This document shows positions 5,544 to 13,700 of a stretch of 64,000 nucleotides of DNA, one piece after another. The stretch lies in NCBI GenBank assembly GCA_045544275.1, contig JAZPYS010000084.1, forward strand, positions 1,471 to 65,470. The letters run 5' to 3'. Position 1 is the first letter of the stretch. Each line of letters begins with the position of its first letter. This stretch comes from Acetatifactor sp. (GTDB taxonomy: Bacteria > Bacillota > Clostridia > Lachnospirales > Lachnospiraceae). Position numbers and translations under genes: made by a program. The notes under the pieces are model-generated. The model did no database searches. It had not been told where the DNA came from and worked only from the letters and a program-made list of their open reading frames with translations.

Positions 5544-6380
5544 TTATTTCTCCACATAAATGATTCCGAATGTACCTGTACCTAAGTGGGCACCGATGGT
5601 AGAACCAATCTGGCATCGTTCGTCTATGGTATAGCCTAAGCTTATTAATTTTTCTTCCATTTTCTCGCAGTTTTCAGTACCTACACTATAGATGCTGTAC
5701 ATGGGGAAGAGGGTATCGATCATATGATCCTGAGCATATTTGGTAATGAATTGGATTGCTTTGTTGCGCCCGATACATTTACCGATTACAGTGAGGGTGC
5801 CGTCCTGCTTTAAGGTGAGCATTGGCTTTAGATTTGCCAATTCACCGATAGTGGCACTGGCTTTACTGAGACGCCCCCCCTTGTACAGATATTCCAGGGT
5901 GTCCACACCGGCCACAACACGGATACGGGGTTTCAGTGCTTCCATCCGAGCAACAATTTCTGCAGCAGAAAGACCATTTTCCTGAAGATTCAGACCATAA
6001 TCTACTAACAGACGTATGATATGGGTGGCTGCAAGAGAATCAATAATATGGACATTTTCATAGTCAACCATTGTTTTGGCTAAATGAGCACTCTGGCAGG
6101 TGCCGCTCAAAGCAGAGGAAAGCAGAACGCAGATCAGTTCATCTCCATTTTCCTTGGCTTCTAAAAATTTTTCTAAAAAGGCCTGAGGAGATGGCTGTGA
6201 GGTCTGAGGGAAATTGTTGCTGCTTAAGAGCAATTCATAAAATTGGCTTCGTTCTAATTCCTGCACATCTAAATAGGTGGCATTATCTAAAGTTATCGCA
6301 ATTGGAACAAGAGATAAATTCTTTTCTTTTATTTCTTCCAGCGTATAATCGGAAGAAGAGTCTACTAAAAATCTGATCAT
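5544..6380 (-). CDS. DegV/FakB family fatty-acid-binding protein
   Basis: VDSSSD, TSQPSP, LSSALSGT, LYKGGRLS, NLKP, IGAHLG motifs. Confidence 0.93.
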   Translation of the reverse strand: MIRFLVDSSSDYTLEEIKEKNLSLVPIAITLDNATYLDVQELERSQFYELLLSSNNFPQTSQPSPQAFLEKFLEAKENGDELICVLLSSALSGTCQSAHLAKTMVDYENVHIIDSLAATHIIRLLVDYGLNLQENGLSAAEIVARMEALKPRIRVVAGVDTLEYLYKGGRLSKASATIGELANLKPMLTLKQDGTLTVIGKCIGRNKAIQFITKYAQDHMIDTLFPMYSIYSVGTENCEKMEEKLISLGYTIDERCQIGSTIGAHLGTGTFGIIYVEK

Positions 6381-6412
6381 AGTAAAAGATTTCCTTTCCT
6401 GGGTGTATTGTG

Positions 6413-6877
6413 CTAATACAAAATTCCATCGGCAATATCAGCTATTTTGTTGAAAAGAGAGATTGTCTGGGCTGTTTCCTGGGGCTCCAGTTTACTTATA
6501 ATGTGGTCGATTAATGACAAAATATCCTCGTGCTGCTTTTCATATTGGTCAGCATGTTCCATATTGAAGGTGAGCTGTACTTGACGTTTGTCAGCAGCAG
6601 AACGATGTCGTAAAATCATTCCTTTTTCTTCCAGTTGATTCAAGGTGCGATTCATCTGGGATTTGAGCATTTTTGTGATTTGGCAAAGCTCTGTAGCAGT
6701 CAGGATTTTTCCTGCTTTGGAATGGGAGTAAAGTATTCCGCAGACAAGAGATTCATTGTATGACATCTCGGACACGATTCTGGAGTTAATGACAGACGTG
6801 GAGAGTCTCAGCCAGGCCTTCAACAGTGCTTCGTTTTCCGGGAGTGTATTGATCTGTGTTTCAGTTATCTGCGACAT
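6413..6877 (-). CDS. MarR family transcriptional regulator
   Basis: wHTH with KSQMNRTLNQLEEKG and DKRQ wing motif; 154 aa. Confidence 0.85.
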   Translation of the reverse strand: MSQITETQINTLPENEALLKAWLRLSTSVINSRIVSEMSYNESLVCGILYSHSKAGKILTATELCQITKMLKSQMNRTLNQLEEKGMILRHRSAADKRQVQLTFNMEHADQYEKQHEDILSLIDHIISKLEPQETAQTISLFNKIADIADGILY

Positions 6878-6906
6878 GGTAGTACTCCTTTCTCGAAAAA
6901 AAGTTC

Positions 6907-6958
6907 ACAATGTAAACAATTCACATTGTATACTACCACATTAGGTGGTGATTGTCAA
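6907..6958 (-). promoter_or_regulatory. Sigma-A promoter of marR-degV with adjacent palindromic operator
   Basis: Minus strand TTGACA-N17-TAGTAT; inverted repeat ACAATGT-N9-ACATTGT (6907-6929) just downstream of the -10. Confidence 0.65.
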
Positions 6959-6962
6959 TAAT

Positions 6963-7001
6963 AAAAAGAAGGGAAGTTTTCCGTTCGGAAGACTTCCCTT
7001 T
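6963..7001 (-). terminator. Intrinsic terminator downstream of the 128-aa gene
   Basis: AAGGGAAGTTTTCC-gttc-GGAAGACTTCCCTT hairpin with T run on the minus strand. Confidence 0.8.
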
Positions 7002-7031
7002 CAATAAATAGACTTTACACATTGTTCTTAT

Positions 7032-7418
7032 TTAGGAAATTTTTTGAAGCTTTTGACTGTGCTCAGTCACAACAGTCTTCAGGATAGTAACATCCTCTTG
7101 TATGGCTTCGATTTGTGTGACACCGCTTTTGTAGCGGTTGTAGGTAGATGTATAACAACTTTCGATATTCTGCAGACGTGGAATGAGCTGAGTTTCAAGT
7201 TGAAGCTCCAGCCTTCGTGTGCGTGTGTCTAAGGTGTCAATTTTGTCTTCCAGAGAGATCACCTTGGTTTCCAGAGAAGCCATTCTGTTCTCCAGAGAGA
7301 TCACTTTGGTTTCCAGAGAAGCTACTCTGTCCTTCAATTCAGAAATATCTTCTTTGATAGGTTGTAGTTTTTTGTCAAATAAATTGGATAAAGCTAATAG
7401 TAATTCATTATCTGTCAT
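7032..7418 (-). CDS. Small coiled-coil hypothetical protein with internal 14-aa repeat
   Basis: 128 aa, heptad pattern (SLETKVISLE twice); minus-strand promoter TTTACA-N17-TAAAAT upstream and terminator downstream. Confidence 0.8.
   Translation of the reverse strand: MTDNELLLALSNLFDKKLQPIKEDISELKDRVASLETKVISLENRMASLETKVISLEDKIDTLDTRTRRLELQLETQLIPRLQNIESCYTSTYNRYKSGVTQIEAIQEDVTILKTVVTEHSQKLQKIS
7249..7332. repeat. 42-bp tandem repeat x2 inside the coiled-coil gene
   Basis: tccagagagatcac(c/t)ttggtttccagagaagc.a.tctgt.c at 7249-7290 and 7291-7332. Confidence 0.9.
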
Positions 7419-7632
7419 GTATGATACCTCGCTAGTAAATAAATTTTATCATAGTTATAAAAGTGTGTAAAGTCTATTTAATTGCAAAATTCAAATTCTC
7501 AATAAGCAAATTCTAATAAGGAACTGTCACAGAAAAACAGAACATAAAGAAAATGGATATAGAATTTTTAGAAGGTCTGCGGCAGAGATCCTGCCGCAGC
7601 TTTTAGAATATTAAAAAAATTATGTCATAAAA

Positions 7633-8910
7633 TTACTTGCAAGCTTCCAGTGCCTGTGCAAGGTCATTAATGATATCATTTACATTTTCGATACCAACAG
7701 ACAAACGAACCAGATCAGGGCTTACGCCGGCAGCCATCAGTTCAGCGTCATTCATCTGGCGATGGGTAGCAGAAGCAGGATGAAGTACACAGGTATGAGC
7801 ATCTGCAACGTGAGTAGCGATCATAGCGATCTTTAAGCCGGCCATAAATTTCTCGGCTGCTTTGCGTCCGCCCTTTACGCCGAAGGAAACTACGCCGCAG
7901 GTACCGTTTGGCATATATTTCTGAGCAAGCTCATAGTATTTGTTTCCGGGAAGTCCGGGATAATTTACCCATTCCACGCATTCATGTGCCTGCAAAAATT
8001 CTGCAACCTTCTGAGCATTCTCGCAGTGGCGAGGCATACGAACATGAAGAGATTCAATACCCAAGTTCAGCAGATACGCGTTCATAGGAGCCTGGATAGA
8101 ACCCAGATCTCTCATAAGCTGAGCGGTTGCTTTGGTAATAAAAGCACCTTCCAGACCGAACTTCTCAGCGTAAGTTACACCGTGATAAGAATCATCGGGA
8201 GTGGTCAGTCCCGGGAACTTGTCTGCGTGTGCGAACCAGTCGAATTTACCGCTGTCAACGATACAGCCGCCTACGGTAGCATCGTGACCATCCAAATACT
8301 TTGTCGTAGAGTGTGTAACGATGTCAGCACCCCACTCAATGGGACGACAGTTGATGGGGGTTGCAAAAGTATTGTCAACGATCAAGGGAACACCATGAGC
8401 GTGAGCGGCTTTGGCAAATCTTTCGATGTCAAATACGATCAATGCAGGGTTCGCAATGGTCTCGCCGAATACTGCCTTGGTGTTGGGCTGGAATGCTGCT
8501 TCTAATTCTTCATCGGAGCAGTCGGGGTCAACAAATGTAAATTCGATGCCCATGCGTTTCATAGTCACTGCAAACAGGTTGTATGTACCGCCGTAAATGG
8601 TAGAAGAAGATACTACGTGATCTCCGGCACTGCAAATGTTAAATACGGAATAAAAGCTTGCAGCCTGTCCGGATGAGGTGAGCATTGCTGCGCTGCCGCC
8701 TTCCAATGCACAGATCTTTGCTGCAACATAGTCGTTAGTAGGATTCTGAAGTCTGGTGTAGAAATAGCCGCTTGCTTCAAGATCGAAGAGCTTGCCCATT
8801 TCCTCACTGGAATCATATTTAAAAGTTGTACTTTGAACAATAGGAATCATGCGGGATTCACCGTTTTTCGGTACATATCCGGCCTGAATACATTTCGTTT
8901 CTCTTTCCAT
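7633..8910 (-). CDS. metY: O-acetylhomoserine aminocarboxypropyltransferase / cysteine synthase family
   Basis: YTRLQNPT, SSGQAA, ETIANP, DNTFATP, PLP lysine in HSTTKYLDGH, HPASATHRQ, RLSVGIE. Confidence 0.9.
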   Translation of the reverse strand: MERETKCIQAGYVPKNGESRMIPIVQSTTFKYDSSEEMGKLFDLEASGYFYTRLQNPTNDYVAAKICALEGGSAAMLTSSGQAASFYSVFNICSAGDHVVSSSTIYGGTYNLFAVTMKRMGIEFTFVDPDCSDEELEAAFQPNTKAVFGETIANPALIVFDIERFAKAAHAHGVPLIVDNTFATPINCRPIEWGADIVTHSTTKYLDGHDATVGGCIVDSGKFDWFAHADKFPGLTTPDDSYHGVTYAEKFGLEGAFITKATAQLMRDLGSIQAPMNAYLLNLGIESLHVRMPRHCENAQKVAEFLQAHECVEWVNYPGLPGNKYYELAQKYMPNGTCGVVSFGVKGGRKAAEKFMAGLKIAMIATHVADAHTCVLHPASATHRQMNDAELMAAGVSPDLVRLSVGIENVNDIINDLAQALEACK

Positions 8911-8996
8911 AATGTGTCTCCTTTATGTGTGTATTATATTCCAAACCCGTGATGTCGCACTTACTGTCTGCGTCGCAGACGGTTTGCATACTTCAT

Positions 8997-9024
8997 ATTT
9001 TACCATATCTGAGCAATTCTTCAA
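8997..9024 (-). promoter_or_regulatory. Putative metY promoter
   Basis: Minus strand TTGAAG-N16-TAAAAT with TG extended -10. Confidence 0.55.
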
Positions 9025-9083
9025 CTGTTTTATTTGGAGAAAAAACTCTCTTTTCTGAATTGTGTGTTTGATATATAAACACA

Positions 9084-9112
9084 TTGACAAAAACGGACAT
9101 TTACGGTCTAAT
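9084..9112 (+). promoter_or_regulatory. Putative sigma-A promoter at the head of the 52-bp array
   Basis: TTGACA(9084)-N17-TCTAAT(9107). Confidence 0.55.
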
Positions 9113-9367
9113 TTTATATTTCTACAAATTAAGCCGAACTTATTTTTCAGGTTTACGGTCATATTTATATGTTTTTATCATTTAGCCGTACTATTTTAGG
9201 CATATTTTACGGTTGCTTTCTAACCATGTATCATTTAAATCTAATAAGCAATTATATTTACGGTTTAAATAGACAAAAATCAAAATGAACCGTAATTCTT
9301 ATACATTATTACGGTTGAATCAAACACAAGACCAATATTAACCGTAATCATTCGTTTTATATACAGC
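9101..9367. repeat. Degenerate ~52-bp periodic array of TTACGGT/ACCGTAA heptamers
   Basis: TTACGGT at 9101, 9153, 9207, 9258, 9309; ACCGTAA at 9289, 9341; GCCGAAC 9133 and GCCGTAC 9185. Confidence 0.8.
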
Positions 9368-9480
9368 CTATATTGAAGAAAAGGTAATACCAACCTATTA
9401 GAAACACAATTTCGAAAAGGGAGAAAAATAATGTTTGGGGGATTGTTTTTTAGAAGAGGTGTGGTATGATACGAGTGTGA

Positions 9481-10197
9481 CTGCGTTTTTTTGATATAAG
9501 GCAGGAACCATTTTGTATCCACGGTGTATTTTGGGAAAATGGGATGTTTCGCAGGATACCGGAAGCGGTAGCCCAGAGTGTGAACGAAGGGGTTTATGGT
9601 CTGCACAGCAACGGAGCCGGAGGCAGAGTGCGATTTGTAACGGATAGCCCTTATGTGGCGATTAAAACAGAGTATATACCGGGGAAAATGCCTCACTTTG
9701 CATTCAGTGGAAGTGCCGGCTTTGATATGTATGTCAAGAACGGGGGCGAAAATCGGTATATGGGAACCTTTATGCCTCCCCTTGATGTAAAAGACGGGTA
9801 TGAAAGTGTGATTGATTTTACTGAGGGTGGAGAGAGAGATTACCATTAACCTGCCCTTATACAGTTCTGTGAAAAAGCTCTATATCGGTCTGAAGGAAGG
9901 CTGTATGCTGAAGGATGCACCGGAATATCGTATAAAAAAGCCGGTGGTATATTATGGTTCCTCTATTACCCAGGGAGGATGTGCGTCCAAGCCGGGAAGC
10001 AGTTATGAAAGTATACTGTTCCGAAGATTTGAGAAGCCAAAGAAGCAGGGGATGAGAATGTGTACTTTATCAGCGGCAGGAAGTTGATGGAGTTGGTGGG
10101 TGACAATGGAACGGTGGATAATTGTCATCCTACGGACAGTGGTTTCTTCAGTATGGCATGTGCTGTTGCAGAGGTGTTTGAAGAGATTGGGGTGTAA
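9481..10197 (+). pseudogene. SGNH/GDSL hydrolase (GxDLY N-terminal domain type) pseudogene
   Basis: Three pieces: SAGFDMY domain (frame 1), YYGSSITQG block I after a frameshift at (GA)5 9830-9839, then C-terminal AGDENVYF...DNCHPTDSG..GV* in frame 1 from 10033; middle of the SGNH domain missing; in-frame TGA at 9478. Confidence 0.85.
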
Positions 10198-10277
10198 AGA
10201 ATAAATTTCAGAAGAAGTTTTTGGTGACCAGGCAGTTATGATAAGTAACGGCCTGTTTCTTTGTAATCACAATAGAC

Positions 10278-10306
10278 TTGACAGTGCGGGTTACATAGGC
10301 TATATT
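10278..10306 (+). promoter_or_regulatory. Near-consensus sigma-A promoter
   Basis: TTGACA-N17-TATATT. Confidence 0.55.
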
Positions 10307-10415
10307 ATAAATGTCTATAAAAATCTTATTTCTAATTTAAAATCTGATGGCTTTTCTGCTTAATATTTCAGAGATAATTTGATTTATAAGAAGGGGACTT
10401 AATAACTTATATGAC

Positions 10416-10444
10416 TTTACACTTTTGCAAAAATTCCCTATAAT
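10416..10444 (+). promoter_or_regulatory. Sigma-A promoter of the small ORF
   Basis: TTTACA-N17-TATAAT. Confidence 0.7.
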
Positions 10445-10480
10445 ATATGCATGGCTTATATAGAAAGGGGAAATGAAAGG

Positions 10481-10663
10481 ATGAATGAAGATTTGAATTT
10501 TGAAGAATTAAAACAGTTCAACATTGACTATTATATTAATCTTATAAGAATTAAAAGACATCAAAAAGAGGTGAATCCGGAACTTGAATTTCAGTTAAAA
10601 ACTCAAAGAAATAAACTCAGTACAATGGGTGTGAATACGAAGGATTTTGAATATGAAGAGTAA
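10481..10663 (+). CDS. Small hypothetical protein (60 aa; ORF could start at 10451)
   Basis: Own promoter, purine-rich RBS AAAGGGG, helical sequence NPELEFQLKTQRNKLSTMGVN, terminator downstream. Confidence 0.7.
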   Translation: MNEDLNFEELKQFNIDYYINLIRIKRHQKEVNPELEFQLKTQRNKLSTMGVNTKDFEYEE

Positions 10664-10724
10664 ATTGTAGCTTATAATTTAAAGGTGTAAACTCATAGAA
10701 AATTTAAGAAGTTCAGTAGACGAA

Positions 10725-10767
10725 AAAACATCAGATGATAACCTGTAGGGGAATCACCTGATGTTTT
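10725..10767. terminator. Bidirectional terminator between the small ORF and the activase gene
   Basis: AAAACATCAG ... CTGATGTTTT inverted repeat between convergent genes. Confidence 0.75.
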
Positions 10768-10778
10768 GTATTATATAT

Positions 10779-13700
10779 TTACTCCAAATTCTTTCCCGCC
10801 GTAGAAAGCATCAGCTTGATGCGGTTCAGCTGATTTACCTCACTTGCCCCGGGATCATAATCAATCGCTACGATATTGGACTCAGGGTAAGCCTTGCGGA
10901 GAGCCTTTACCACACCTTTGCCCACAATATGGTTAGGCAGACAGCCGAAGGGCTGTGTGCATACGATGTTGGGAACCCCGTCATGGATCAGTTCCACCAT
11001 TTCGCCGGTCAGGAACCATCCTTCACCGGTCTGGTTGCCGATGGACACGATGGGCTCTGCAAATTCTACTAACTTGTAGATGGACTCCGGCGGCGTAAAG
11101 TGTTTACTTTTCCGGAAAGCCTTCACGGCACTGCCACGTACAACCTTTTCGATTGTCCAAATGCCCAATTTGCTGAGCATGGAGGCTTTCTTTCCGGTGC
11201 CGAAATGTTCTGCTTTGTAAATCTGGTTGTAGAAGCAGTAAAGCATAAAACCGATCAGATCAGGTACTACAGCTTCGGCACCTTCAGCTTCCAATAGTTC
11301 AACCAGATGATTGTTTCCGGCAGGGGAGAATTTAACTAAGATCTCACCTACTACACCAACCCGGGGCTTTTTGATATCCTTCACCGGAATCATATCAAAG
11401 TCTTCAATGATCTTTCTGCAGAGGGAAGGGAACTGCAGTACATTTATATGCTTTGCGGATATAAATTCCTGAGCTTCCTTCAGCCATTTTGCGTGGATGG
11501 CATTGACACTGCCGGGCACTTCTTCGTAAGGACGCATGCGGTAGACACAGCGCATGAAAATGTCACCGATCATGGCACCTAAAGCCGCCCGAAGCAGCAG
11601 ATCTGCACTCAGCTTGAAGCCGGGGTTGGTTTCGATGCCGCCCATATTCAGGGAAATAACCGGAATGTGAGCCATGCCGGCTTTTTCCAGTGCACGACGG
11701 ATAAAGCCGATGTAGTTGGTGGCACGACAGCCGCCACCTGTCTGGGTAATGATGATGGCGATTTTGTTTAAGTCATATTTGCCGGAAAGCAGTGCTTCCA
11801 TAATCTGTCCCACTACTAAAAGAGAAGGATAACAGGCGTCATTATTTACATATTTCAGTCCCACATCCACAGAATGCTTGTTGTCGTTTTGCAGCACCTC
11901 AAAATGGTAACCGCAGGCATTGAAGGCAGGTTCTAAAATGTCAAAATGGATGGGCGACATCTGAGGGCAGAGGATGGTGTATTTTTTGCGCATTTCTTCC
12001 GTAAATTGTACCTTTGTGATGGCGCTTGACTGAATTTTGCGCTGTTTCGCTTTCTTTTCTTTTACCCGAAGGGCGGACAGCAGGGAGCGGATGCGGATGC
12101 GGGCTGCTCCTAAATTGTTGACTTCGTCGATTTTTAAACAGGTATATATCTTATCAGATCCTGTCAGGATATCACCTACCTGATCGGTGGTAACGGCATC
12201 CAGACCACAGCCGAAGGAATTCAATTGGATCAGGTCCAAATTATCCACGGTTTTTACATAGCTTGCGGCAGCATACAGTCTGGAATGGTACATCCATTGG
12301 TCGGAGACCATAAGCGGTCTTTCCGGTGCGGCCAGGTGGGAAATGGAATCTTCCGTCAGCACCGCAATATCATAAGAAGTAATCAACTCCGGAATACCGT
12401 GGTTGATCTCGGGATCTATATGGTAAGGGCGGCCTGCCAGTACAATGCCCCTTTTGCCGGTTTCTTTCAGGTAACGGAGGGTTTCTTCTCCTTTCAACTG
12501 CATGTCTTTGCGGGCAGATGCCTGTTCGGCCCATGCCTTCTGTACAGCCTGACGCACTTCATTTCCGGGAATCTCAGTGAATTCTTTCAACAGAGCATCC
12601 GTAATTGTATCCACATCCCGAAAGGACATGAAAGGATTGCGGAAAATGATCTGTCCACTGCTTATTTCTTCCATATTGTTCTTGATATTTTCAGAATATG
12701 AAGTCACGATAGGACAATTATAATGGTTGTTGGCATCTTCAAATTCGTTACGTTCGTAGAACAATGCCGGATAGAAGATGAATTTCACACCATTGTTGAT
12801 GAGCCATTTTACGTGACCATGTACCAGCTTGGCCGGATAACATTCGGACTCGCTGGGAATGGATTCAATGCCCAGTTCGTAAATTTTCCGGTTGGAGTTG
12901 GGAGAGACTACCACCCGATATCCTAATTCCGTGAAGAAGGTATGCCAGAATGGATAGTTTTCATACATGTTTAGGACTCTGGGAATACCTACAACACCTC
13001 TTGTTGCACTTTCTTCTGCCAGGGATTCATAACCGAAAATACGATTCAGCTTATATTCAAAAAGGTTCGGTACATTGTTTGCATTCTTTTTGCCGCCGAG
13101 GCCCTTTTCGCATCGGTTGCCGGATATGTACTGTCTGCCATCGGAAAAACGGTTGATGGTCAGGCGGCAGTTATTGGTGCAGCCACGACATTTTGCCATG
13201 CTGGTCTTGTATTTGAAATTGCAGACGTCTTCATAGGAAAGCATGGTGGATGGCTTGCCCTCAAAACGATCTCTGGCGATCAGCGCAGCACCGAAAGCTC
13301 CCATAATGCCTGCGATATCCGGACGGATAGCTTCACAGCCGGCGATCTTTTCAAAGCTTCGAAGAACCGCATCGTTGTAGAAGGTACCGCCCTGAACCAC
13401 TATCTGACGTCCCAGTTCAGAAGCATCTGACACCTTAATGACTTTAAAGAGTGCATTTTTAATAACGGAGTAAGCCAGTCCGGCAGAAATGTCTGCAACA
13501 GAGGCGCCTTCCTTCTGGGCCTGCTTTACTTTGGAATTCATGAATACAGTACAACGGGTACCCAGGTCGATAGGGTGTTTGGCAAAAAGTGCCTCTTTGG
13601 CAAAGTCCTGCACACTGTAGTTTAAGGATTTGGCAAAAGTTTCGATGAAGGAACCACAGCCGGAAGAGCAGGCTTCGTTTAGCTGTACACTGTCCACGGT

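What the first reader, a model, noticed from the sequence alone, without database searches (positions are those of the whole stretch)
10411..10696. Second unrelated small gene bracketed by the same inverted motif
Seen: ATGACTTTACAC (10411-10422) and GTGTAAACTCAT (10685-10696, 11/12 inverted match) enclose the 60-70-aa ORF. The core GACTTTACAC is identical to the one around the gene at 7032-7418, giving three exact copies and one single-mismatch copy within 3.7 kb, always pointing inward in pairs. Here both ends also read as inward promoters (TTTACA-N17-TATAAT sense; TTTACA-N16-TACAAT antisense). Inference: a shared gene-cassette system in which the recombination site carries the -35 box for its passenger gene. 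Alternatively, a sense/antisense (type I TA-like) unit.
Basis: partly seen in the sequence, partly recalled or inferred. Interest (0 to 1): 0.7.

Follow-up and report, generated by a model that had tools for sequence, protein, structure and literature searches.

The report
Shuffled small-gene cassette with promoter-terminator boundaries
The inverted motif around this 60-residue gene is the promoter (-35 region) on one side and the leftover half of a terminator hairpin on the other, the two boundaries of a conserved, apparently undescribed self-expressing small-gene cassette that gut Lachnospiraceae carry singly or in arrays and swap by recombination at those boundaries.

Summary

Both window genes also occur in other Lachnospiraceae MAGs inside one conserved module. 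It has a sigma-A promoter, CCTTGAcAAyTTAATAAArGaCTTTACAyC-N12/13-TATAAT. A short leader and strong ribosome site follow, then a 46-128 aa ORF. It ends in the hairpin GGTGTAAAGTCTTTTATTAAnTTATCAAGACTTTACACC-T run. The promoter's upstream/-35 segment (about 30 nt) is the reverse complement of the hairpin's 5' arm plus loop.

In this window both cassettes have lost the hairpin's 3' arm and end at unrelated terminators.

Metatranscriptome contigs over a canonical array are one per cassette. They start about 21-24 nt after the -10 and stop about 10 nt before the hairpin.

Near-identical arrays differ by replacement of one whole cassette, with breakpoints at the hairpin end, the promoter spacer and the stop codon. 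No recombinase, target duplication or phage context was found.

The closest analogue is the PeSL promoter/stem-loop cassettes of T4-like phages. The type I toxin-antitoxin alternative is not supported. What the proteins do is unknown.

The parts
10271..10306 (+). Extra upstream promoter-like site P1 (AATAGACTTGACA-N17-TATATT); probable start of the longer transcript seen in RNA
   Evidence: Promoter scan 11/12. Its -35 context matches the 128-aa gene's boundary 12/13 (D14/I17). RNA contigs begin at 10339-10347, upstream of the module promoter. Invariant in other strains of the species.
10397..10444 (+). Left cassette boundary and module promoter P2: ACTTAATAA...TATGACTTTACAC (upstream/-35 segment; -35 TTTACA at 10416-10421), 17-nt spacer, TATAAT at 10439-10444
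   Evidence: Promoter scan. Corresponds to the conserved module promoter of homologues, e.g. L007 CCTTGACAACTTAATAAGGCTTTACACC...TTATAATATAAGTAT.
10445..10480 (+). Leader with conserved ribosome-binding region (AGAAAGGGG...GAAAGG-ATG)
   Evidence: Read from the sequence. The same leader is seen in all cassettes.
10481..10663 (+). 60-aa ORF: soluble two-helix hairpin protein of unknown function
   Evidence: 37 homologue clusters with 22 invariant residues. 194 representative clusters at E<=1e-3. AF2 pLDDT 91.6, helices 2-27 and 33-48. No Pfam, NCBIfam or PHROG family. No informative PDB fold match.
10681..10697 (+). Right cassette boundary: remnant of the 5' arm of the family's terminator hairpin (AAAGGTGTAAACTCATA); the 3' arm is lost
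   Evidence: Homologues have AAGGTGTAAAGTCTTTTATTAA..AAGACTTTACACC at this position after the stop codon. No complementary arm follows in the window.
10664..10691 (-). Antisense promoter-like site (TTTACA-N16-TACAAT), specific to this lineage and of doubtful function
   Evidence: Scan 10/12. The -10 is not conserved in about 20 other cassettes.
10725..10772 (.). Substitute bidirectional intrinsic terminator (AAAACATCAGATGAT / ATCACCTGATGTTTT), shared with the convergent 1449-aa gene
   Evidence: Inverted repeat I9, 15 nt at 93%. RNA contigs end at 10715-10721, just before its stem.
7443..7480 (-). Left boundary and promoter of the sister cassette (TAAATAGACTTTACACA; -35 at 7471-7466; TG-extended -10 TAAAAT at 7448-7443)
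7032..7418 (-). 128-aa coiled-coil ORF with 21-nt repeats (sister cassette)
   Evidence: Homologues in L018, L021, L022 and L023 lie in the canonical module.
7005..7026 (-). Right boundary of the sister cassette: hairpin 5'-arm remnant (minus strand TGTGTAAAGTCTATTTA), followed by a substitute terminator at 6969-7000
   Evidence: Inverted repeats I3 and I8. Sequence read.

Best explanation
Window 10397-10697 is a diverged, partly decayed copy of a self-contained small-gene expression cassette found in Lachnospiraceae.

The canonical cassette has:
- a strong sigma-A promoter whose upstream element and -35 box lie in a conserved ~30-bp left boundary;
- a short leader with a strong ribosome-binding site;
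- one small ORF;
- a conserved 15-bp-stem intrinsic terminator hairpin (H) as the right boundary.

The left boundary is an inverted, outer-arm-truncated copy of H, so each ORF is bracketed by ~30-bp inverted repeats. The upstream GACTTTACAC is the -35 region. The downstream GTGTAAACTC is what remains of H's 5' arm.

Shown:
- Promoter and hairpin behave as start and stop of monocistronic RNAs in a canonical array.
- The window gene is transcribed in bovine gut samples.
- Related genomes carry different ORFs between the same boundaries.
- Near-identical arrays differ by replacement of a whole cassette, with junctions at the boundaries.

Inferred:
- Cassettes are gained, lost and exchanged by recombination between the conserved promoter and hairpin sequences, most simply homologous recombination as proposed for phage PeSL elements.
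- The two inverted copies in a cassette are kept alike by gene conversion or template switching.

In this species the cassette is fixed and has lost the 3' arm of H. It terminates at the neighbour's bidirectional terminator and has gained an upstream promoter, so here both motif copies are inside the RNA.

The proteins are soluble helical hairpins of unknown role. Their turnover and high expression suggest small protein-binding modulators, which is a guess.
For: Family and anatomy:
- Homologues of the 60-aa protein lie in different genomic contexts, always with the same promoter and hairpin.
- A scan of 185,579 species genomes for the hairpin 20-mer gave 18 loci, all labelled Lachnospiraceae genera except L016 (Ruminiclostridium). 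By my count 16 of them have the module promoter upstream: about 280-340 nt for cassettes with 44-79-aa ORFs, further in L018 and L023.
- The promoter motif is absent from 545 kb of control loci.
- The cassette ORFs match no Pfam or NCBIfam family. By eye they fall into at least 5 groups, and both window families are among them.
- The promoter consensus equals the reverse complement of the hairpin over ~30 nt.
- The hairpin stem is 96.6% paired, with compensatory changes at 2 pairs.
- The sense -10 is near perfect, 5.8/6.

Transcription:
- RNA contigs over array L015 run 6351-6552, 6750-6963 and 7557-7740, with zero depth between cassettes.
- Window RNA contigs cover 10339-10721 in 4 runs. Depth is zero immediately either side in all four, and across the whole upstream flank in three.

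Exchange:
- L002 and L003 share 100%-identical blocks on either side of a replaced cassette. Each form occurs in several independent assemblies.
- L013 and L020 have a 98%-identical right flank and hairpin but different ORFs.
- L040 has a different cassette, in the opposite orientation, at the site corresponding to the window's.

Co-divergence:
- A cassette's own left and right copies are more alike than non-partners: 18.7 against 14.9, 0 of 50,000 permutations.
Against: - No polymorphism of the cassette exists within the window's own species, so mobility is inferred only from relatives.
- All comparative loci are metagenome-assembled.
- RNA data are unstranded contigs without true ends.
- Why the promoter should be an inverted copy of the terminator is unexplained.
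- The own-versus-cross similarity test does not fully control for shared ancestry.
- The window transcript starts upstream of the module promoter, so use of that promoter here is not shown.
- Solitary hairpins without the promoter exist (L016, L025).
Confidence: 0.75

Rival explanations
1. The hairpin and inverted boundary are sites of a dedicated recombination system, integron-like in logic or directed at single-stranded hairpins. A recombinase encoded elsewhere excises and inserts the cassettes.
For: - A conserved structured palindrome with a conserved loop sits at the 3' end of each cassette.
- Cassettes occur in tandem arrays and in many unrelated contexts.
- One replacement junction lies exactly at the hairpin end.
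- The 5' arm plus loop is kept even where the 3' arm is lost.
Against: - No recombinase or any other gene family is shared by the 23 neighbourhoods.
- Other junctions lie in the promoter spacer and right after a stop codon, not at one fixed point.
- There is no GTTRRRY-type core, and each cassette has its own promoter.
- There are no target duplications.
Confidence: 0.1
2. The inverted pair works at the RNA level. When the left copy is transcribed, by read-through or from an upstream promoter as in this window, it pairs with the right copy. This forms a panhandle around the ORF that blocks the terminator hairpin, creates an RNase III site, or stabilises the mRNA.
For: - Window RNA contigs include both copies.
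- The 17-bp long-range helix appears in both the MFE and the centroid fold.
- In canonical cassettes, RNAs that include the left copy fold into a ~29-bp panhandle that displaces the terminator, z = -4.5 and -4.2.
- Partner copies co-diverge.
- Recurrent consensus differences (G against A, U against C) would mostly be G-U compatible.
Against: - In the canonical array the inter-cassette regions, left copies included, have zero RNA depth. Normal transcripts therefore lack the left copy.
- The whole-transcript fold of the window RNA is not unusual (z = -1.1).
- Gene conversion would give the same co-divergence.
Confidence: 0.2
3. The shared ~30-bp sequence is the binding site of one DNA-binding regulator. 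The small genes form a regulon, with sites at both ends of each gene (looping or roadblock).
For: - The sequence, not only the structure, is conserved across genera, including the hairpin loop.
- The same sequence occurs in non-transcribed promoter DNA and in the terminator.
- The G variant at the fourth position of the -35-like hexamer (TTTGCA instead of TTTACA) appears at both ends in one lineage.
Against: - No candidate regulator is linked to the cassettes.
- From memory, the motif matches no Firmicute operator I know of; this was not tested.
- Compensatory changes in the stem indicate selection on pairing.
- A regulon does not explain the replacement of ORFs between identical flanks.
Confidence: 0.15
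4. The cassettes are non-autonomous transposable elements (MIC/MITE-like). They are bounded by ~30-bp terminal inverted repeats and moved in trans by a transposase, with the promoter inside the left repeat as in many insertion sequences.
For: Inverted ~30-bp ends; a promoter inside the left end; insertion in many unrelated intergenic sites.
Against: - No consistent target-site duplication: own 4.1 against cross 3.6 nt shared.
- No transposase nearby.
- The cassettes form head-to-tail arrays with conserved spacers.
- Exchange junctions lie inside the unit rather than at the repeat tips.
Confidence: 0.06
5. This is a sense/antisense (type I toxin-antitoxin-like) unit. The downstream motif is the -35 of an antisense RNA that controls a toxic peptide.
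For: The window has TTTACA-N16-TACAAT on the minus strand. The RNA contigs carry no strand information.
Against: - The protein is highly charged, has no hydrophobic segment, and is predicted as a soluble helical hairpin.
- The antisense -10 is not conserved in the family.
- RNA contigs extend to 10715-10721, beyond any antisense start near 10657.
- The sister 128-aa cassette has no antisense -10 (3/6).
Confidence: 0.03

Closest known systems
PeSL (promoter-early stem-loop) regulatory cassettes of T4-like phages (Arbiol et al. 2010, PMC2839356; Comeau et al. 2014, PMC4122927)
   Same: - Small ORFs of mostly unknown function are each flanked by a conserved composite of a sigma-70-type promoter and a terminator stem-loop.
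- They occur in series, transcriptionally insulated.
- Close relatives differ by insertion, deletion or replacement of ORFs, with crossovers inside the conserved regulatory sequence. Junctions between -10 and ATG or SD are reported there. Here they lie in the -35/-10 spacer, at the hairpin end and after the stop codon.
- Degraded 'half' elements are common in both (window, L011, L017, L019).
   Different: - These cassettes are in bacterial chromosomes of Lachnospiraceae, not in phage hyperplastic regions. The one viral-contig hit is a chance match inside a coding region.
- Hairpin and next promoter are about 100 nt apart rather than adjacent.
- The promoter's upstream/-35 part is itself an inverted, truncated copy of the hairpin, so each ORF is bracketed by inverted repeats. 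This is not described for PeSLs.
- Circles were not tested.
Integron gene cassettes with attC sites
   Same: One small ORF per unit, arrays of units, and a structured imperfect palindrome at the 3' end of each unit.
   Different: Each unit has its own promoter. There is no integrase or attI next to the arrays and no R/L core motifs. Exchange junctions are not at one fixed point.
Mobile insertion cassettes / insertion sequences with the promoter in the left inverted repeat (from my own knowledge: MIC231 of Bacillus cereus; IS10- and IS911-type pIRL promoters)
   Same: A passenger gene lies between terminal inverted repeats, and the -35 lies inside the left repeat.
   Different: No target duplications and no cognate transposase. 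The right repeat is part of a functional terminator hairpin. The units form tandem arrays with conserved spacers.
Type I toxin-antitoxin loci
   Same: A small ORF with a convergent promoter-like site at its 3' end, in this window only.
   Different: The protein is hydrophilic and not membrane-active. The antisense promoter is not conserved.

Membership tests
Lachnospiraceae promoter-sORF-hairpin cassette (defined here) | Left boundary (CTTGAyAAyTTAATAAArGaCTTTACAyC) followed at 17 nt by TATAAT | tested here: met
   The window has ACTTAATAA-(7-nt insert)-TATGACTTTACAC-N17-TATAAT. It is diverged upstream of the -35 but corresponds to L007 and L009.
Lachnospiraceae promoter-sORF-hairpin cassette (defined here) | Complete terminator hairpin GGTGTAAAGTCTT-loop-AAGACTTTACACC after the ORF | tested here: not met
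   Only the 5' arm (GGTGTAAACTC) remains, and termination is taken over by the 10725-10767 hairpin. Other cassettes also lack the 3' arm (L011, L017, L019, L040, and partly L018).
Lachnospiraceae promoter-sORF-hairpin cassette (defined here) | The passenger ORF belongs to a family found in canonical cassettes elsewhere | tested here: met
   The 60-aa family is in L002/L003, L007, L009, L014 and L027. The 128-aa family is in L018, L021-L023.
PeSL cassettes of T4-like phages | Composite conserved promoter plus terminator stem-loop flanking small ORFs | tested here: met
PeSL cassettes of T4-like phages | Located in hyperplastic regions of T4-like phage genomes | tested here: not met
   The contexts are chromosomal housekeeping genes. 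The viral-contig scan gave one spurious coding-region hit.
PeSL cassettes of T4-like phages | Indels or replacements between close relatives with crossovers in the element | tested here: met
   Met in relatives: L002 against L003 and L013 against L020. Not seen in the window's own species.
PeSL cassettes of T4-like phages | Excised mini-circles | not testable with these tools
   Only assembled contigs of public runs were available.
Integron cassette / attC | attC with conserved core sites, promoterless cassette, adjacent IntI/attI | tested here: not met
   Every cassette has its own promoter. No gene family is shared by the neighbourhoods. No GTTRRRY core is visible in the hairpin.
Type I toxin-antitoxin | Small hydrophobic membrane toxin | tested here: not met
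   The sequence is charged, and the AF2 model is a soluble helical hairpin with pLDDT 91.6.
Type I toxin-antitoxin | Conserved antisense RNA promoter | tested here: not met
   The antisense -10 averages 3.4/6 across cassettes, and the window is the single 5/6 case.
IS / MITE / MIC transposable cassette | Terminal inverted repeats | tested here: met
   About 30 nt; 17 and 22 nt in the window.
IS / MITE / MIC transposable cassette | Target-site duplications | tested here: not met
Invertible-promoter switch (inverton) | Both orientations of the segment between the inverted repeats present in one population | not testable with these tools
   No raw reads were available. Contigs drop rare variants.

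The most novel reading that the evidence does not exclude
Lachnospiraceae chromosomes host a hairpin-directed cassette system. A ~39-bp palindrome serves as terminator and, in inverted truncated form, as promoter. It is also the recombination site of a dedicated trans-acting recombinase. The system would assemble and reshuffle arrays of self-expressed small-protein genes, a Firmicute counterpart to integrons in logic but unrelated in parts.
Probability: 0.1. Interest if true: 0.9.

Novelty: new variant of a known kind. Interest (0 to 1): 0.66.

Why it matters
Small proteins of gut bacteria are numerous and mostly unexplained.

This is a portable unit of promoter, ribosome site, ORF and terminator. 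It is strongly expressed in vivo, carries unrelated small ORFs, and is swapped between and within genomes. Modular promoter/terminator shuffling of this kind has been documented only in T4-like phages. Here it would operate in bacterial chromosomes.

It gives a simple sequence handle for finding fast-turnover small genes in Lachnospiraceae: the hairpin plus the promoter about 300 nt upstream.

It also poses a clear mechanistic question: why the promoter is an inverted copy of the terminator.

The boundary elements are compact natural parts for gene expression in Clostridia. The RNA data are consistent with their working as promoter and terminator, but reporter assays are still needed.

Tried and rejected
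- Chance: rejected by the motif statistics and family-wide conservation.
- Known RNA families: Rfam found nothing in 6000-12000 at E<=1.
- Known protein families: Pfam, PHROGs and NCBIfam gave nothing for the 60-aa protein or the other cassette ORFs. The 128-aa protein gives only generic coiled-coil hits below cut-off.
- Fold search of a confident model: only generic helical hairpins, E>1.
- Phage origin: one viral-contig hit, inside a coding region and without a hairpin.
- Linked recombinase or regulator: all-against-all comparison of neighbour ORFs in 23 loci found no shared family beyond local synteny.
- Empty-site search through SGNH-esterase relatives in metagenomes: the closest were only 72% identical. 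This gave no empty site, but it revealed a different cassette at the corresponding position.
- Target duplications: none.
- Conserved antisense promoter: none.
- Literature search for the motif sequence: only chance primer matches. A search for cassette-type descriptions in Firmicutes found nothing.
- RNAalifold on the leader found no consensus structure. A named 6-bp palindrome just after the -10 shows some covariation, but its 5' half probably lies upstream of the transcription start, so its nature is open.
- A first own-versus-cross similarity test was mis-registered and picked wrong partners. It was redone on curated pairs.
- The 128-aa family outside this clade (Roseburia sp. 499, common human-gut Lachnospiraceae, strain ZAX-1) lacks the module, so the module is not a property of the protein family.

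Full report
**1. The observation**

- GACTTTACAC is exact at 7011(+), 7474(-) and 10413(+). GAGTTTACAC is at 10694(-).
- The degenerate pattern GASTTTACAC has 4 hits in 64 kb against 0.19 expected, and no shuffle reaches 4. The pattern was chosen after the fact.
- Of the 15 TTTACAC sites in the window, only these four have the GAs context, and all four are intergenic.
- The repeats are longer than reported: 22 nt at 91% around the 128-aa gene (7005-7026 / 7459-7480) and 17 nt here (10410-10426 / 10681-10697, 15/17).
- The consensus scan returns both promoter readings: + 10416-10444 TTTACA-N17-TATAAT and - 10691-10664 TTTACA-N16-TACAAT. It also returns the promoter of the 128-aa gene (7471-7443, with TG extension) and a further site at 10278-10306.

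**2. The genes**

*The 60-aa protein*
- The ORF most likely starts at ATG 10481, giving 60 aa. Thirty-seven homologue clusters align from there, with 22 invariant residues.
- A profile search of 1.84 billion representatives finds 194 clusters, nearly all small proteins.
- AlphaFold2 gives a confident helical hairpin, pLDDT 91.6.
- The sequence is highly charged. No family or informative fold match exists.

*The 128-aa protein*
- It is a coiled coil with 21-nt repeats and more than 700 homologue clusters in Lachnospiraceae.

**3. What the motif is**

Homologues of the 60-aa gene lie in unrelated neighbourhoods: after other small genes and before a Mur ligase, between a DNA-alkylation-repair gene and PolC, and between BipA and a phosphomutase.

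In all of them the flanks are the same.
- Upstream: CCTTGACAAyTTAATAAAgGaCTTTACAyC, 12-13 nt, TATAAT, then a leader ending GAAAGGGGTG..GAAAGG-ATG.
- Downstream: AAGGTGTAAAGTCTTTTATTAAnTTATCAAGACTTTACACC followed by a T run. This is an intrinsic terminator hairpin.

In L002 and L003, three or four such units stand head to tail, each with a different small ORF.

Scanning one genome of each of 185,579 species for the hairpin's 5' arm plus loop gave 18 loci.
- All are labelled Lachnospiraceae genera (Acetatifactor, Lachnospira, Butyrivibrio) or unnamed Lachnospiraceae, except L016, which is labelled Ruminiclostridium.
- By my count 16 of the 18 have the module promoter upstream. It lies about 280-340 nt upstream for cassettes with 44-79-aa ORFs, and further in L018 and L023.
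- The promoter motif is absent from 545 kb of unrelated control loci.

The ORFs inside match no Pfam or NCBIfam family and fall by eye into at least five groups (46-96 aa). They include homologues of both window genes: the 60-aa family in L007, L009, L014 and L027, and the 128-aa family in L018 and L021-L023.

Both are members of one cassette type.
- The upstream copy of the motif is the -35 region.
- The downstream copy is the 5' arm of the terminator hairpin.
- In the window both cassettes have lost the hairpin's 3' arm and are followed by unrelated terminators (6969-7000 and 10725-10767).

**4. The inverted relation is a property of the family**

Anchored on the hexamer, the two consensus sequences are:
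- promoter: acCTTGAcAAyTTAATAAAgGaCTTTaCAyCtt
- reverse complement of the hairpin: AGGTGtAAAGtCTTgAtAAnTTAATAAAAGACTTTaCACCtT

They coincide over about 30 nt. A cassette is therefore: an inverted hairpin lacking its outer arm, then the -10, leader, ORF and the full hairpin.

The hairpin stem is under structural selection. It is 96.6% paired, with compensatory changes at two pairs.

The sense -10 is almost always a perfect TATAAT at 17 nt. The matching antisense position scores at background (5.8 against 3.4 of 6). The window's TACAAT is the exception.

A cassette's left copy resembles its own right copy more than those of other cassettes: mean score 18.7 against 14.9, 0 of 50,000 permutations.
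- The clearest cases are diverged cassettes whose two ends share the same derived sequence. These are the window's 128-aa cassette (AAATAGACTTTACACA at both ends), L019 (GGATAAATAAC at both ends) and L040 (TTTTrCAGTTTAAyAG at both ends).
- Shared ancestry is not fully controlled in this test. Even so, the two window cassettes differ from each other while each matches its own partner.

**5. Transcription**

*Canonical array L015 (same contig as L002)*

| RNA contig (three gut metatranscriptomes) | Start relative to the end of the TATAAT | End |
|---|---|---|
| 6351-6552 | 21 nt after | 10 nt before the hairpin |
| 6750-6963 | 24 nt after | 12 nt before the hairpin |
| 7557-7740 | 21 nt after | inside the ORF (stop near 7753); no canonical hairpin before the contig end |

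- Depth between cassettes is zero. One of the four cassettes has no RNA coverage.
- This supports the promoter and terminator assignments. It also shows that the left copies are not normally transcribed.

*The window*
- Four bovine-gut metatranscriptomes each contain a contig that matches 10339/10344/10346/10347 to 10715/10716/10721/10721 without mismatch.
- Depth is zero immediately either side in all four runs, and across the whole upstream flank in three of them.
- The gene is therefore expressed in vivo well above its neighbours.
- The RNA ends just before the substitute terminator and starts upstream of the module promoter, most simply from the 10278-10306 site.
- Consequently both motif copies lie inside this RNA. 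They pair in both the minimum-energy and the centroid folds.
- The contigs carry no strand information and no true ends.
- The 128-aa gene is also represented in RNA contigs, 7101-7445.

**6. Turnover**

Within the window's species the cassette region is nearly invariant. One codon of the ORF differs between strains, and the boundary motifs are identical.

In relatives there is clear modular exchange.
- L002 and L003 are 100% identical through one cassette up to the T run after its hairpin.
- They then differ completely in the next cassette: a 46-aa ORF against a 64-aa ORF.
- They become 100% identical again from the -35/-10 spacer of the following cassette to its stop codon, after which they diverge again.
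- Both forms are seen in several independent assemblies.
- L013 and L020 share a 98%-identical right flank and hairpin but carry different ORFs and different left flanks.
- In L040, whose SGNH esterase is 72% identical to the window's neighbour, the corresponding intergenic site holds a different cassette in the opposite orientation. It too has a decayed hairpin.

The following were looked for and not found:
- No gene family is shared by the neighbourhoods.
- There is no consistent target duplication.
- There is no phage context.

The 128-aa family in more distant Lachnospiraceae lacks the module. The module is therefore attached to genes, not inherited with one family.

**7. Mechanism**

*Shown*
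- Cassette anatomy.
- RNA coverage of canonical cassettes consistent with start at the promoter and stop at the hairpin.
- Expression in vivo.
- Mosaic exchange with junctions at the boundaries.

*Inferred*
- Exchange occurs by recombination between the conserved regulatory sequences, as proposed for PeSL elements of T4-like phages. There, crossovers between -10 and ATG and excised mini-circles were demonstrated.

*Open: why the promoter is an inverted copy of the terminator*
- The simplest reading is that the palindrome is a dual-use element. Its arms contain TTTACA and its A/T-rich loop can serve as an upstream element. Gene conversion or template switching would keep nearby inverted copies alike.
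- An RNA panhandle is thermodynamically strong whenever the left copy is transcribed. It displaces the terminator in L009 and L012 (z = -4.5 and -4.2), and it may matter in this window. The array RNA data argue against it as the general function.
- A common DNA-binding protein or a dedicated recombinase cannot be excluded.

**8. Comparison and novelty**

- The unit works like a PeSL cassette but is not one. It is chromosomal and bacterial, and its promoter derives from the hairpin in inverted orientation.
- It fails the defining tests for integron cassettes, type I toxin-antitoxin loci and transposable cassettes (see the membership table).
- I found no description of the motif or of such cassettes in Firmicutes in the searchable literature.
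- I rate it a new variant of a known kind. It is of real interest for small-protein biology and genome plasticity in gut Clostridia.
- The window copy itself is an old, fixed and partly decayed member.

Noticed in passing
window 9101-9347: Seven TTACGGT/ACCGTAA sites lie within 250 nt, spaced about 52 nt apart, between divergent metY and the SGNH esterase. They include two TTACGGTT-N22/23-AACCGTAA palindromes. The whole window has 13 sites against 3.5 expected. This looks like an array of regulator binding sites.
   Followed up: partly
window 9430-10197: The SGNH/GDSL esterase gene is broken. Compared with the intact 355-aa gene of another strain (L028) it has a 15-nt deletion, a 2-nt frameshift and a 271-nt internal deletion. 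The part upstream of the large deletion is only about 90% identical, while the last ~240 nt and the small-gene cassette are 100% identical. This suggests a recombination junction.
   Followed up: partly
window 7240-7323: The 128-aa coiled-coil gene contains 21/42-nt tandem repeats. Homologues come in lengths differing by multiples of 7 aa (86, 107, 114, 121, 128, 135, 142, 149). One RNA contig skips exactly 42 nt (7248-7291). The coiled coil therefore varies in length.
   Followed up: partly
window 10445-10468 and the corresponding place in other cassettes (alignment A5): A short palindrome directly after the -10 (for example TATAAGTA-N3-TACTTATA) shows compensatory changes at 5 of 6 pairs. 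Its 5' half probably lies before the transcription start. It is unclear whether it is a 5' RNA stem, a DNA structure or an operator.
   Followed up: partly
window 10271-10306: An additional promoter-like site with the same -35 context as the 128-aa gene's promoter (AATAGACTTGACA) has no ORF of its own downstream. It may be the remnant of a lost cassette or a duplicated promoter. RNA contigs start about 35 nt after it.
   Followed up: partly
window 6903-6935: There is an ACAATGT-N10-ACATTGT palindrome between the -10 and the start codon of the MarR-family gene (6413-6877, minus strand). It is probably that gene's own operator.
   Followed up: no
L016 1246-1275; L025 2529-2559: Short solitary versions of the hairpin occur without the module promoter. 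In L025 it terminates a 96-aa gene that has a different promoter. The palindrome can therefore exist apart from the cassette.
   Followed up: partly
L002 2640-3950 (spacers between cassettes): Within one array, about 100 nt upstream of each promoter is also conserved (GGTATTTCACCAAATATTCC...). Across genomes, conservation begins at CCTTGA. Arrays therefore carry longer direct repeats than single cassettes.
   Followed up: no
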